A stretch of DNA of 64,000 bases. Origin: Escherichia coli O157:H7. Lineage in GTDB: Bacteria > Pseudomonadota > Gammaproteobacteria > Enterobacterales > Enterobacteriaceae. The DNA lies in the NCBI RefSeq assembly GCF_013167455.1, contig NZ_CP038328.1; one strand, written 5' to 3'. A program made the translations under genes and the position numbers. Positions within the stretch are counted from its first letter, which is position 1; each line of letters begins with the position of its first letter. The notes under the pieces are model-generated. The model did no database searches. It saw only the letters and a list, made by a program, of their open reading frames with translations, and was not told where the DNA came from. Shown here one piece after another: positions 6,866 through 64,000 of this stretch.

Positions 6866-6984
6866 GGTCGCTCCTTGCCTGAAGTCATCCTTCAATACGT
6901 TAAGGGCGAAATCATACCGTGGGGCAATGAGTTATTACGGGCGTTTATTGCGAAGGGAGGGTGACGAAATGCACAGAAAACAAA

Positions 6985-7008
6985 AAACCCCGCCGAAGCG
7001 GGGTTCAA
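6985..7008 (-). terminator. Intrinsic terminator downstream of proM (tRNA operon)
   Basis: Minus strand reads CCCCGCTTCGGCGGGG hairpin followed by TTTTTTGTTTT, immediately after the tRNA-Pro 3' end. Confidence 0.7.
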
Positions 7009-7011
7009 AAT

Positions 7012-7088
7012 TGGTCGGCGAGAGAGGATTCGAACCTCCGACCCACTGGTCCCAAACCAGTTGCGCTACCAAGCTGCGCTACTCGCCG
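7012..7088 (-). tRNA. proM: tRNA-Pro (anticodon UGG)
   Basis: Reverse complement gives CGGCGAGTAGCGCAGCTTGGTAGCGCAACTGGTTTGGGACCAGTGGGTCGGAGGTTCGAATCCTCTCTCGCCGACCA, 77 nt with encoded CCA. Confidence 0.95.
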
Positions 7089-7130
7089 AAATACTGCTTT
7101 TTGAATTTTTAGTTCAATTCTTTAAAGTCG

Positions 7131-7217
7131 TGGTGCGAGGGGGGGGACTTGAACCCCCACGTCCGTAAGGACACTAACACCTGAAGCTAGCGCGTCTACC
7201 AATTCCGCCACCTTCGC
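7131..7217 (-). tRNA. leuT: tRNA-Leu (anticodon CAG), duplicated copy
   Basis: Reverse complement gives GCGAAGGTGGCGGAATTGGTAGACGCGCTAGCTTCAGGTGTTAGTGTCCTTACGGACGTGGGGGTTCAAGTCCCCCCCCTCGCACCA, 87 nt; identical to the copy at 7357..7443. Confidence 0.9.
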
Positions 7218-7237
7218 ATTGTCACAACTTCTAATAA

Positions 7238-7314
7238 TGGGGTGGCTAATGGGATTCGAACCTCCGACCCACTGGTCCCAAACCAGTTGCGCTACCAAGC
7301 TGCGCTACTCGCCG
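7238..7314 (-). pseudogene. Chimeric tRNA: tRNA-Pro 5' body fused to tRNA-His 3' T-arm/acceptor strand; predicted non-functional
   Basis: Reverse complement gives CGGCGAGTAGCGCAGCTTGGTAGCGCAACTGGTTTGGGACCAGTGGGTCGGAGGTTCGAATCCCATTAGCCACCCCA; 5' 60 nt equal proM, 3' end equals hisR; junction in the shared GGTTCGAATCC; acceptor and T stems no longer base-pair. Confidence 0.85.
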
Positions 7315-7356
7315 AAATACTGCTTTTTGAATTTTTAGTTCAATTCTTTAAAGTCG

Positions 7357-7443
7357 TGGTGCGAGGGGGGGGACTTGAACCCCCACGTCCGTAAGGACAC
7401 TAACACCTGAAGCTAGCGCGTCTACCAATTCCGCCACCTTCGC
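7357..7443 (-). tRNA. leuT: tRNA-Leu (anticodon CAG)
   Basis: Same 87 nt sequence as 7131..7217; follows hisR after a 20 nt spacer as in the canonical operon. Confidence 0.95.
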
Positions 7444-7463
7444 ATTGTCACAACTTCTAATAA

Positions 7464-7540
7464 TGGGGTGGCTAATGGGATTCGAACCCACGACAACTGG
7501 AATCACAATCCAGGGCTCTACCAACTGAGCTATAGCCACC
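7464..7540 (-). tRNA. hisR: tRNA-His (anticodon GUG)
   Basis: Reverse complement gives GGTGGCTATAGCTCAGTTGGTAGAGCCCTGGATTGTGATTCCAGTTGTCGTGGGTTCGAATCCCATTAGCCACCCCA. Confidence 0.95.
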
Positions 7541-7597: not shown

Positions 7598-7674
<77 letters not shown>

Positions 7675-7679
7675 TTAGC

Positions 7680-7745
7680 GCCGTTGCGGGGGTGGATAAT
7701 ACGGACTTCCCCCCCCTCTGTCTAGTCCCTTTTTAAATAAATTGC
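7680..7745 (-). promoter_or_regulatory. Probable promoter of the argX-hisR-leuT-proM operon
   Basis: Minus strand upstream of argX has a TATTAT -10-like hexamer followed by a GC-rich discriminator (CCACCCCCGC), as in stringently controlled stable-RNA promoters; -35 is not clear. Confidence 0.4.
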
Positions 7746-63556: not shown

Positions 63557-64000
63557 ATGGCAGATATAACTCTTATCAGCGGCAGCACCCTCGGCGGTGC
63601 CGAATATGTAGCAGAACACCTGGCTGAAAAGCTGGAAGAGGCGGGTTTTACCACCGAAACGCTGCACGGTCCGCTGTTGGAAGATTTATCTGCCTCGGGG
63701 ATCTGGCTGGTTATCAGCTCCACCCACGGTGCCGGAGATATTCCGGACAACCTTTCTCCTTTCTATGAAGCATTGCAGGAACAGAAGCCCGATCTTTCTG
63801 CGGTCCGCTTTGGCGCAATCGGTATTGGTAGTCGTGAATATGACACATTTTGTGGGGCTATCGATAAACTCGAGGCTGAACTCAAAAATTCCGGTGCAAA
63901 ACAGACGGGCGAAACACTGAAGATCAACATTCTTGATCACGACATTCCGGAAGATCCGGCAGAAGAATGGCTGGGATCGTGGATTAATTTACTCAAATAA
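63557..64000 (+). CDS. mioC: flavodoxin-like FMN-binding protein MioC
   Basis: 147 aa; MADITLISGSTLGGAEYVAEHLAEKLEEAG flavodoxin N-terminus; stop at 63998..64000 is the last codon of the window. Confidence 0.9.
   Translation: MADITLISGSTLGGAEYVAEHLAEKLEEAGFTTETLHGPLLEDLSASGIWLVISSTHGAGDIPDNLSPFYEALQEQKPDLSAVRFGAIGIGSREYDTFCGAIDKLEAELKNSGAKQTGETLKINILDHDIPEDPAEEWLGSWINLLK

What the first reader, a model, noticed from the sequence alone, without database searches (positions are those of the whole stretch)
7026..7488. 226 bp tandem duplication inside the argX-hisR-leuT-proM tRNA operon
The canonical operon has four tRNA genes. Here the minus strand reads argX, hisR, leuT, a Pro/His chimeric tRNA, a second leuT and proM. 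Two perfect 226 bp direct repeats (7026..7251 and 7252..7477) are bounded by the 11 bp T-arm sequence GGATTCGAACC shared by proM and hisR, which is the signature of unequal crossing-over between the two T-arms. Perfect identity of the copies suggests a recent event or an assembly artefact. Net effect is two copies of tRNA-Leu(CAG) plus a chimeric pseudo-tRNA.
Basis: seen in the sequence. Interest (0 to 1): 0.6.

Follow-up and report, generated by a model that had tools for sequence, protein, structure and literature searches.

The report
Inherited leuT tRNA duplication in O157
The 226-bp duplication is a real, inherited marker of the E. coli O157 lineage, already annotated in the Sakai reference genome; it adds a second leucine-tRNA gene plus a dead hybrid tRNA, in a lineage that has lost two of its other copies of that same tRNA gene.

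Summary
Two perfect 226-bp units (7026-7251, 7252-7477) are followed by a third copy of the 11-bp T-arm motif. On the minus strand they give argX, hisR, leuT, a proM/hisR chimera, leuT and proM, in one transcription unit.

It is not an assembly artefact. The chimeric junction is present at 100% identity in 287 of 5,426 complete E. coli genomes. All identified carriers are O157, including Sakai, EDL933 and the sorbitol-fermenting strain 493/89. It is absent from O55:H7 and K-12, whose locus equals the window minus one unit.

It is already on record: the Sakai annotation names leuT1, tRNA51 (the chimera), leuT2 and proM2.

The chimera is a pseudo-tRNA: 2 of 7 acceptor pairs, 3 of 5 T-stem pairs, Rfam 34.6 bits against 65.8 for proM.

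Copy number is still variable. About 11 O157:H7 genomes have collapsed to one unit and at least 2 have three.

The new context is that O157 has also contracted the leuQPV array from three genes to one. tRNA-Leu(CAG) gene number therefore runs 4 in O55:H7, 2 in LSU-61 and 3 in typical O157. Dosage compensation is plausible but unproven, and the order of the two events is unresolved.

Overall this is an ordinary kind of event in a known instance, with a modestly interesting dosage story attached.

The parts
7696..7724 (-). argX operon promoter: -35 TAGACA (7724-7719), 17-nt spacer, -10 TATTAT (7701-7696). It is the only promoter-like site in the locus.
   Evidence: 10 of 12 consensus matches. 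The position fits the transcript start AACGGCGCTAA used for the in vitro precursor in PMC3985628.
7712..7712 (-). SNP in the promoter spacer. G on the transcribed strand here, giving a run of eight G. T in K-12, O55:H7 CB9615, LSU-61 and 493/89.
   Evidence: The G allele also occurs in O55:H7 DEC5B and DEC5D and in about 20 unrelated genomes, so the site is homoplastic.
7598..7674 (-). argX, tRNA-Arg(CCG), intact
   Evidence: Rfam tRNA 64.1 bits.
7464..7540 (-). hisR, tRNA-His(GUG), intact (includes G-1 at 7540). Its T arm holds the upstream copy of the 11-bp motif (7478-7488).
   Evidence: Rfam 69.7 bits; cloverleaf minimum-free-energy fold.
7357..7443 (-). leuT copy 1 (promoter-proximal), tRNA-Leu(CAG)
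   Evidence: Rfam 48.5 bits; identical to copy 2; annotated leuT1 in Sakai.
7238..7314 (-). Chimeric pseudo-tRNA: proM from its 5' end to the T loop, then the hisR T-stem 3' strand, acceptor 3' strand and CCA.
   Evidence: 2 of 7 acceptor pairs and 3 of 5 T-stem pairs in the proM register; Rfam 34.6 bits; the minimum-free-energy fold is not a cloverleaf. Annotated as tRNA51 / tRNA-Pro in Sakai. Not annotated by PGAP.
7131..7217 (-). leuT copy 2, tRNA-Leu(CAG), with the same 5' and 3' spacers as copy 1
   Evidence: annotated leuT2 in Sakai.
7012..7088 (-). proM, tRNA-Pro(UGG), intact. Its T arm holds the downstream copy of the 11-bp motif (7026-7036).
   Evidence: Rfam 65.8 bits.
6975..7006 (-). 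Rho-independent terminator of the operon (9-bp stem, 4-nt loop, T run)
7026..7251 (.). Repeat unit 1 (226 bp)
7252..7477 (.). Repeat unit 2 (226 bp), identical to unit 1. The novel junction is the hisR-type sequence ending at 7251 joined through the 11-bp motif (7252-7262) to the proM-type sequence from 7263.
   Evidence: The 43-nt junction probe 7236-7278 is specific to 287 genomes.
7478..7488 (.). Third copy of the 11-bp microhomology GGATTCGAACC that bounds the array

Best explanation
This is a genuine, vertically inherited 226-bp tandem duplication inside the argX-hisR-leuT-proM tRNA operon of the E. coli O157 clone.

Shown:
- It formed by one misaligned exchange between the 11-bp T-arm motif of hisR and the same motif in proM, 226 bp downstream.
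- It duplicated the segment 'hisR 3' end, spacer, leuT, spacer, proM 5' part'.
- The product is one transcription unit with one promoter and one terminator. It holds intact argX, hisR, two identical leuT genes with identical flanks, intact proM, and one hybrid (proM 5' / hisR 3') that cannot form an acceptor stem or a full T stem.
- It arose after the split from O55:H7 and before sorbitol-fermenting O157:H- and non-sorbitol-fermenting O157:H7 diverged.
- It still changes copy number (1, 2 or 3 units).

Inferred:
- The founding event was RecA-independent slippage or template switching, because the homology is only 11 bp. Later 2->1 and 2->3 changes use the 226-bp homology.
- Both leuT copies are expressed and matured normally, because the A/U-rich spacers where RNase E cuts are duplicated intact.
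- The chimera is transcribed, released and degraded as a defective tRNA.
- Functionally, the duplication raises tRNA-Leu(CAG) gene number from 2 to 3 in a lineage whose leuQPV array had shrunk from three genes to one. I consider it about even odds that this partial restoration of dosage is why the duplication has been kept.
For: Structure.

Not an artefact: the junction-specific probe hits 287 of 5,426 genomes at 100% identity. Carriers include Sanger-finished Sakai, EDL933 and PacBio-closed 493/89.

Ancestral state: K-12 and O55:H7 CB9615 have four genes. The collapsed window equals CB9615 apart from 1 SNP in 2,800 bp, and equals DEC5B with no differences.

Timing: 493/89 has the same junction with the ancestral T at 7712, whereas non-sorbitol-fermenting strains have G. 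PV15-279, an early-branching strain carrying pO157_2, has the duplication.

Dynamics: three units in strain 319 and AR-0430. An exact one-unit collapse with the G allele occurs in about 11 O157:H7 genomes. These include MB9-1 (clade 7) and F8952 (clade 2), both PacBio assemblies polished with Illumina reads, and Xuzhou21, which is grouped with Sakai-type strains.

Processing: all five RNase E sites of this precursor lie in single-stranded A/U-rich segments (PMC3985628).

Dosage context: the leuQ locus has 1 gene in Sakai, LSU-61 and 493/89 but 3 in CB9615. The deletion is exactly 236 bp with no other change. Leu(CAG) gene counts are 4 (median), 3 in O157 with the duplication and 2 in single-copy O157. 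The junction is seen in 0 of about 5,127 non-O157 genomes, and the contraction in about 125 of them, or 2.4%. The co-occurrence in one short stretch of history is therefore unlikely by chance, although this is a single event noticed after the fact.
Against: Against a selective (compensatory) role:
- All 60 listed non-O157 genomes with the contracted leuQ locus carry only 2 Leu(CAG) genes and no leuT duplication (one is a partial record). Two genes are therefore tolerated.
- About 11 O157:H7 isolates live with one leuT.
- The order of the two events is not resolved. LSU-61 (contracted array, single leuT) is basal to the other two O157 branches by only 1 SNP in 105 kb and has 19 private SNPs, so its single copy could be a secondary loss.
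- No expression, tRNA abundance or fitness data were available.

Against the RecA-independent formation step: nothing in the sequence can distinguish the pathways.

Some non-O157 'contractions' come in batches from single studies (the AVS and GF series). These could be clones or assembly collapses, so the 2.4% background is uncertain.
Confidence: 0.8

Rival explanations
1. Neutral hitch-hiker. The duplication is real and inherited but has no fitness effect. It arose once by chance in the founder of the O157 clone, was carried to fixation by the clone's expansion, and persists because the clone is young and the loss rate is low. Its co-occurrence with the leuQPV contraction is coincidence.
For: Two Leu(CAG) genes are tolerated in all 60 listed non-O157 genomes with a contracted leuQ locus and in about 11 O157:H7 isolates. 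O157 is a young clone with very little diversity: 22 private SNPs for the non-sorbitol-fermenting branch and 6 for the sorbitol-fermenting branch in 105 kb. The order of the two events is unresolved.
Against: The junction is found in none of about 5,127 non-O157 genomes, while the contraction is in only about 2.4% of them. Both rare events hit the same tRNA species within the same short stem. The duplication is retained in about 96% of O157 genomes although exact one-unit collapses demonstrably occur in separate clades.
Confidence: 0.45
2. Assembly artefact: a spurious expansion of a repeat in this one assembly.
For: The two units are perfectly identical, which is what an assembler error could also produce.
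Against: The identical junction is present in 287 independent complete genomes from many laboratories and technologies. It is absent from 5,139 others. Its phylogenetic distribution is coherent.
Confidence: 0.01
3. The founding event was classical RecA-dependent unequal crossing-over between sister chromosomes, rather than RecA-independent slippage or template switching.
For: The geometry is the one expected for unequal exchange: a head-to-tail repeat with the junction inside homology shared by the two end points. The homology extends imperfectly to 15 of 17 bases.
Against: Only 11 contiguous identical bases are available. To my knowledge this is below the usual minimum for efficient RecA-mediated exchange, whereas short, closely spaced direct repeats are typical substrates of RecA-independent misalignment. 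argX and proM share a longer run of 13 nt that was not used.
Confidence: 0.2
4. The chimera is a functional gene product, either a new tRNA-Pro-like adaptor as the Sakai annotation implies or a stable regulatory RNA, and it is the reason the duplication is kept.
For: ARAGORN calls it tRNA-Pro(tgg). It exceeds the Rfam gathering score, 34.6 against 29. Sakai annotates it as tRNA-Pro. Its D arm and anticodon arm are intact, and a one-base shifted register gives 6 of 7 acceptor pairs (alignment).
Against: In the native register only 2 of 7 acceptor pairs and 3 of 5 T-stem pairs form, and the minimum-free-energy fold is not a cloverleaf. The shifted register needs a T stem of about 2-3 pairs and a one-base connector. 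The score is about 31 bits below proM. PGAP does not annotate it in five genomes. From my own knowledge, the ProRS identity nucleotides in the acceptor end (G72, A73) are not both preserved.
Confidence: 0.03

Closest known systems
leuT1 / tRNA51 / leuT2 / proM2 locus of E. coli O157:H7 Sakai (NC_002695.2, ECs_R0110-R0113)
   Same: Identical sequence over the 2-kb locus (L010, 0 differences) and the same six tRNA-like units in the same order. This is the same feature.
   Different: None in sequence. The Sakai annotation treats the chimera as an ordinary tRNA-Pro, which the structure analysis here does not support.
Canonical argX-hisR-leuT-proM operon (E. coli K-12 b3796-b3799)
   Same: Same promoter, terminator, flanking genes (thrP/yifK and aslB), tRNA sequences and spacers. 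The sequences are identical apart from the duplication and one promoter-spacer SNP.
   Different: Six tRNA-like units instead of four: an extra leuT and a proM/hisR hybrid.
Microhomology-bounded tandem duplications in bacteria (short-junction duplications formed by slipped misalignment or template switching)
   Same: A head-to-tail repeat whose end points in the ancestral sequence share a short identical run (11 bp). Once formed, the array is unstable and expands or collapses through the long repeat.
   Different: It is very small (226 bp), lies entirely inside a tRNA operon, and uses the universally conserved T-arm motif as the microhomology, so the by-product is a hybrid tRNA.
Compensatory tRNA-gene duplications in experimental evolution of Pseudomonas fluorescens SBW25 (PMC7661048; PMC10954465)
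   Same: A tandem duplication raises the copy number of a tRNA gene in a genome that has lost tRNA gene(s) serving the same codon demand. The duplications are unstable and copy number varies in the population.
   Different: The laboratory cases are large-scale duplications spanning many genes, arose under known selection, and have measured fitness and tRNA-pool effects. Here the unit is 226 bp, the event is natural, the lost and gained genes encode the identical tRNA, and neither selection nor expression has been measured.
Native tandem arrays of identical tRNA genes (leuQPV, glyVXY)
   Same: Several identical tRNA genes sit head to tail in one transcript, and copy number changes by recombination between the genes. 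leuQPV has gone from 3 genes to 1 in O157 and in about 125 other genomes.
   Different: In those arrays the repeat end points lie in or between identical genes, so no hybrid gene is produced.

Membership tests
argX-hisR-leuT-proM operon | Located between thrP (yifK) and aslB, with one promoter upstream of argX and a Rho-independent terminator after proM | tested here: met
   The flanks are identical to K-12 and O55:H7.
argX-hisR-leuT-proM operon | Exactly four tRNA genes in the order Arg(CCG), His(GUG), Leu(CAG), Pro(UGG) | tested here: not met
   Six tRNA-like units are present: Arg, His, Leu, Pro/His hybrid, Leu, Pro. This is a derived variant of the operon.
Microhomology-mediated tandem duplication | Perfect head-to-tail direct repeat, with an ancestral single-copy allele that equals the array minus one unit | tested here: met
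   1 SNP in 2,800 bp against CB9615; 0 differences against DEC5B.
Microhomology-mediated tandem duplication | The two ancestral end points share only a short identical run, which appears once more after the last unit | tested here: met
   11-bp GGATTCGAACC at 7026, 7252 and 7478. It is the longest run shared by hisR and proM.
Microhomology-mediated tandem duplication | Formation independent of RecA | not testable with these tools
   This needs formation-rate measurements in recA+ and recA- strains.
Functional tRNA (for the chimera at 7238-7314) | 7-bp acceptor stem and 5-bp T stem closing a cloverleaf | tested here: not met
   2 of 7 acceptor pairs and 3 of 5 T-stem pairs; the minimum-free-energy fold is not a cloverleaf. 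Rfam 34.6 bits against 65.8 (proM) and 69.7 (hisR).
Functional tRNA (for the chimera at 7238-7314) | Stable, processed and aminoacylated RNA in the cell | not testable with these tools
   No expression data were available.
Compensatory tRNA-gene duplication | Loss of gene copies for the same tRNA elsewhere in the same lineage | tested here: met
   leuQPV has 3 genes in CB9615 and 1 in Sakai, LSU-61 and 493/89. The deletion is exactly 236 bp.
Compensatory tRNA-gene duplication | The loss precedes the duplication | tested here: inconclusive
   LSU-61 has the contraction without the duplication. It is basal to the other two O157 branches by only 1 SNP in 105 kb and has 19 private SNPs, so a secondary loss cannot be excluded.
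Compensatory tRNA-gene duplication | The duplication raises the mature tRNA level and fitness in the depleted background | not testable with these tools
   This needs tRNA sequencing and competition assays. The counter-indication is that non-O157 genomes with the contraction show no compensation.
Assembly artefact | Confined to one assembly or one technology, with no coherent phylogenetic distribution | tested here: not met
   287 genomes carry it, all identified ones O157. It is absent from O55:H7, K-12 and 5,139 genomes in all.

The most novel reading that the evidence does not exclude
The leuT duplication and the leuQPV contraction are coupled by selection on tRNA-Leu(CAG) gene dosage. The founder of the O157 clone lost two of its four genes for the tRNA that reads CUG, which to my knowledge is the most used codon in E. 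coli. A 226-bp microhomology duplication about 57 kb from oriC then restored one copy and was kept by selection. Copy number still drifts between 1 and 3 units. If true, this would be a natural, dated counterpart, in a major pathogen, of the tRNA-gene 'birth by duplication' so far seen mainly in laboratory evolution. The duplication junction would also be a simple PCR marker for the O157 clone.
Probability: 0.4. Interest if true: 0.55.

Novelty: already known. Interest (0 to 1): 0.3.

Why it matters
In itself the finding matters little. It is a small tandem duplication of a familiar kind, already annotated in a reference genome. Four points have practical or conceptual value.

(1) The chimera is annotated as a real tRNA-Pro in Sakai and is called by ARAGORN, while PGAP drops it. 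tRNA gene counts for O157 therefore differ by annotation pipeline, and the 'tRNA-Pro' call should be treated as a pseudogene.

(2) The 43-nt junction is an exact, clone-specific marker, found in 287 of 5,426 genomes. It separates O157 (both sorbitol-fermenting and non-fermenting) from O55:H7 and from LSU-61.

(3) Copy number at this locus (1, 2 or 3 units) and at leuQPV (3 or 1 genes) is polymorphic and will be mis-assembled by short reads. Studies of tRNA gene content and codon adaptation need closed genomes.

(4) The pairing of a two-gene loss with a one-gene gain for the same tRNA makes a long-discussed idea testable in nature with simple isogenic constructs: that tRNA gene copy number is under dosage selection.

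Tried and rejected
(1) Promoter-spacer SNP as an O157 marker. I tried to use the SNP at 7712 to count O157 genomes without the duplication. A 60-nt probe gave no match, probably because the low-complexity filter masked the C and A/T runs. The G allele then turned out to be homoplastic: it occurs in O55:H7 DEC5B and DEC5D and in about 20 unrelated genomes, and it is absent from 493/89 and LSU-61.

(2) Placement of the duplication. My first inference, from LSU-61 (single leuT) and PV15-279 (duplicated), was that it arose on the branch to non-sorbitol-fermenting O157:H7. I rejected this once the closed genome of the sorbitol-fermenting strain 493/89 proved to carry the same junction.

(3) Position of LSU-61. 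I fetched three further 50-kb blocks for LSU-61, 493/89, Sakai and CB9615. Across 105,273 usable columns there was only 1 informative SNP (the two O157 branches together, excluding LSU-61) against 0 for the alternatives. The order of contraction and duplication therefore stays open.

(4) Independent compensation elsewhere. I looked for it in other lineages with a contracted leuQ locus. None was found among the 60 genomes listed.

(5) Literature. No held paper describes the leuT duplication or links it to leuQPV. McDonald et al. 2015 (PMC4539685) state that no tandem arrangement was evident for the tRNA genes enriched in O157:H7, but they were discussing other tRNAs. Withers, Wernisch and dos Reis 2006 (RNA 12:933), which from memory catalogues tRNA gene gains and losses in K-12, CFT073 and O157:H7, is not held, so I could not check whether it lists these events.

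(6) The weak Rfam hits other than tRNA (rsmX, PrrF, Plastid-ycf2 and others) are all far below their gathering scores, overlap tRNA or terminator sequence, and were dismissed.
Full report
OBSERVATION

The repeat is exactly as described. Tandem Repeats Finder reports 7026-7488 with period 226, 2.0 copies, 100% identity and no indels. Direct comparison shows that 7026-7251 and 7252-7477 are identical. The match runs on for 11 more bases, GGATTCGAACC at 7478-7488, and does not extend to the left. On the minus strand ARAGORN finds tRNA-Arg(ccg), tRNA-His(gtg), tRNA-Leu(cag), a 75-nt 'tRNA-Pro(tgg)', tRNA-Leu(cag) and tRNA-Pro(tgg). The middle 'Pro' gene has the proM sequence from its 5' end to the T loop and the hisR sequence from there to the CCA end. 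One sigma-70-type promoter lies upstream of argX (-35 TAGACA, 17 nt, -10 TATTAT; 7724-7696). One Rho-independent terminator follows proM (7006-6975). Together they bracket the whole array, so this is a single transcription unit.

IS IT REAL?

I designed a 43-nt probe across the chimeric junction (7236-7278) in which each parental side contributes only 27 bases, too few to seed megablast. It hits 287 of 5,426 complete E. coli genomes, all at 100% identity and all on chromosomes. Every identified carrier is O157. Examples:
- EDL933.
- Sakai, whose locus is identical to the window.
- TW14359.
- PV15-279, an early-branching strain that carries pO157_2.
- 493/89, the sorbitol-fermenting O157:H- strain, closed with PacBio.

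These assemblies come from many laboratories and technologies, so an assembly artefact is excluded. K-12 and O55:H7 CB9615 have the canonical four genes. The window with one unit deleted equals CB9615 over 2,800 bp apart from one SNP, and equals O55:H7 DEC5B with no difference.

ALREADY ON RECORD

The depositors' annotation of the Sakai genome lists argX, hisR, leuT1, 'tRNA51' (tRNA-Pro, anticodon tgg, 75 nt), leuT2 and proM2 at this locus. The duplication is therefore a known feature of the reference genome. NCBI's PGAP annotates only the five good tRNAs and leaves the chimera blank in EDL933, NJS001, strain 319, AR-0430 and 493/89. Gaps in the locus-tag numbering in EDL933 and strain 319 suggest an earlier call that was later withdrawn; this is inference. 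I found no held paper that discusses the event. The most likely place, Withers et al. 2006, is not in the library.

THE CHIMERA

- In the proM register only 2 of 7 acceptor pairs and 3 of 5 T-stem pairs can form.
- Its minimum-free-energy fold (-23.6 kcal/mol) is not a cloverleaf, whereas proM (-31.4) and hisR (-26.6) fold as cloverleaves.
- Rfam's tRNA model gives 34.6 bits against 65.8 for proM, 69.7 for hisR and 64.1 for argX. It reaches that score only by shifting the acceptor register by one base and deleting two T-stem positions.

I read it as a pseudo-tRNA, a by-product of where the exchange happened.

The two leuT copies are identical and have identical 5' and 3' spacers, because the repeat unit runs from T loop to T loop. 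In the canonical precursor all five RNase E sites lie in single-stranded A/U-rich segments (PMC3985628). The hisR-leuT and leuT-proM spacers are duplicated intact. I infer that both leuT copies mature normally and that the chimera is released and degraded.

HOW IT FORMED

The only sequence shared by the two end points is the 11-nt T-arm motif, or 15 of 17 bases if extended imperfectly. Eleven bases is short for RecA-mediated recombination (my own knowledge). RecA-independent slipped misalignment or template switching between direct repeats 226 bp apart is the more likely route. The sequence cannot decide between them.

Once formed, the 226-bp homology allows further change:
- Strain 319 (100% match to a synthetic three-unit query) and O157 AR-0430 carry three leuT genes and two chimeras.
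- A synthetic 'collapsed' O157 operon is matched at 100% over its full length by about 11 O157:H7 genomes.

The collapsed genomes carry the G allele at 7712. Within O157 that allele arose after the duplication, because 493/89 has the duplication with the ancestral T. They also fall in different clades: MB9-1 is clade 7 with the tir A allele, F8952 is clade 2 with tir T, and both are PacBio assemblies polished with Illumina reads. Xuzhou21 is grouped with Sakai-type strains. They are therefore independent secondary losses, not a basal state. Among about 299 O157 genomes, roughly 95% have two units, about 4% have one and about 1% have three.

THE WIDER DOSAGE PICTURE

An oddity led to this part. 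Single-unit O157:H7 genomes gave 2 matching places, whereas O55:H7 and all other listed E. coli gave 4. The cause is the leuQPV array. These three genes encode the same tRNA-Leu(CAG) as leuT.
- In Sakai, LSU-61 and 493/89 a single gene lies between yjjZ and rsmC.
- O55:H7 CB9615 has all three.
- The O157 allele is the CB9615 array minus exactly 236 bp (periods 115 + 121), with no other change in about 560 bp. That is a collapse by recombination between identical genes.

A probe of 60-nt flanks plus one gene shows the single-gene locus in 424 of 5,426 genomes. It also counts Leu(CAG) genes per genome: median 4; 3 in O157 with the duplication; 2 in single-unit O157. Gene number for this tRNA therefore runs as follows:
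- O55:H7: 3 + 1 = 4
- LSU-61: 1 + 1 = 2
- Typical O157: 1 + 2 = 3
- Rare variants: 1 + 3 = 4, or 1 + 1 = 2

IS THE DUPLICATION COMPENSATORY?

Evidence for:
- The junction is found in none of about 5,127 non-O157 genomes.
- The contraction occurs in only about 125 of them, or 2.4%.
- Yet both events fall in the short stretch of history between O55:H7 and the common ancestor of O157.
- The duplication is retained in about 96% of O157 genomes although losses demonstrably occur.

Evidence against:
- All 60 listed non-O157 genomes with the contraction have only two Leu(CAG) genes and no compensation (one is a partial record).
- Single-unit O157:H7 isolates exist.
- The argument rests on one co-occurrence noticed after the fact.

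The order of the two events is not settled. LSU-61 has been published as the intermediate between O55:H7 and both O157 branches (PMC3309690; PMC7175801). It has the contraction without the duplication. I counted polarised SNPs in 105,273 aligned columns outside rrn operons, using the window or Sakai for the non-sorbitol-fermenting branch, 493/89 for the sorbitol-fermenting branch, LSU-61, and CB9615 as outgroup:
- Shared by all O157: 28
- Private to the non-sorbitol-fermenting branch: 22
- Private to the sorbitol-fermenting branch: 6
- Private to LSU-61: 19
- Shared by the two O157 branches but not LSU-61: 1 (window 58828)
- LSU-61 with either branch alone: 0

The three lineages are close to a trifurcation. 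Either the duplication arose on the very short internal branch, in which case the loss came first. Or it arose on the stem and LSU-61 lost it on its own long branch, in which case the order is unknown. A rough weighting puts the two scenarios near even odds: 1 unit of internal branch, against 28 units of stem multiplied by a loss probability of about 3%. I put the probability that dosage selection links the two events at about 0.4.

POSITION ON THE CHROMOSOME

The window is collinear with the last 64 kb of the oriC-started records of the CP0383xx series. The junction lies 56,764 nt from the window end, the same offset as from those record ends. The collinear LSU-61 block ends in mioC, next to oriC. 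The operon is thus about 57 kb from oriC and is transcribed in the direction of replication, whereas leuQ lies about 690 kb away. At fast growth a copy gained here is worth somewhat more than a copy lost at leuQPV. This is inference from replication-associated gene dosage.

VERDICT

The structural interpretation is right and the artefact alternative is refuted. The 'unequal crossing-over' label needs the qualification given above. The feature is an ordinary kind of event and a known instance. The only part with some novelty is its pairing with the leuQPV contraction and the population-level copy-number variation, which make a dosage-selection hypothesis cheaply testable.

Noticed in passing
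Outside the window: Sakai L011 12567-12653; LSU-61 L012 23563-23649; 493/89 L018 16954-17040; compare O55:H7 CB9615 L015 5712-6034: The leuQPV array (three tRNA-Leu(CAG) genes in K-12 and O55:H7) is reduced to one gene in all O157 genomes examined, by an exact 236-bp deletion. The same single-gene state occurs in about 125 non-O157 complete genomes (424 of 5,426 in all).
   Followed up: yes
window 7712: A T-to-G change on the transcribed strand in the 17-nt spacer of the argX promoter creates a run of eight G. Within O157 it is specific to the non-sorbitol-fermenting branch: 493/89 and LSU-61 keep T. The same G allele also appears in O55:H7 DEC5B and DEC5D and in about 20 unrelated genomes, so the site mutates recurrently. 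Its effect on promoter strength is unknown.
   Followed up: partly
window 42900-48700 (rrnC operon): Differences among the window, 493/89, LSU-61 and CB9615 come in tight clusters, for example 45755-45768, 47182-47203 and 48351-48389. The patterns conflict with the backbone SNPs, as expected from gene conversion between rRNA operons. I excluded this region from the phylogenetic count.
   Followed up: partly
window 63557-64000 and the window as a whole: The window ends in mioC, next to oriC. Its junction offset from the end (56,764 nt) equals the offset from the record end in the USMARC CP0383xx O157:H7 records. The window is therefore probably the last 64 kb of an oriC-started O157:H7 chromosome record.
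   Followed up: partly
EDL933 L001 and strain 319 L006 (RefSeq annotation): Locus-tag numbers skip exactly where the chimera lies: RS25255 in EDL933, and RS26195 and RS26205 in strain 319. This suggests an earlier automatic tRNA call that was later removed. Sakai still carries it as tRNA-Pro 'tRNA51'.
   Followed up: no
O157 AR-0430, L007 797-882 and 1022-1107: Two of the three leuT copies are annotated as 86 nt instead of 87. The array differs from the window-derived three-unit query by single-base gaps, probably homopolymer sequencing errors in the G/C runs rather than real mutations.
   Followed up: no
O157:H7 TR01 (NZ_CP033605.1, hits H2 and H104): This genome shows one more leuT-like place than other duplicated O157 genomes with the 269-nt query (4 against 3) but not with the junction query. 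It may carry an extra tRNA-Leu(CAG) gene somewhere. Separately, a third genome with two junction copies (290 places in 287 genomes) was not identified.
   Followed up: no
window 58828: This is the only SNP in about 105 kb that groups non-sorbitol-fermenting O157:H7 with sorbitol-fermenting O157:H- to the exclusion of LSU-61 (A against C in LSU-61 and CB9615). The three O157 lineages are close to a trifurcation.
   Followed up: yes
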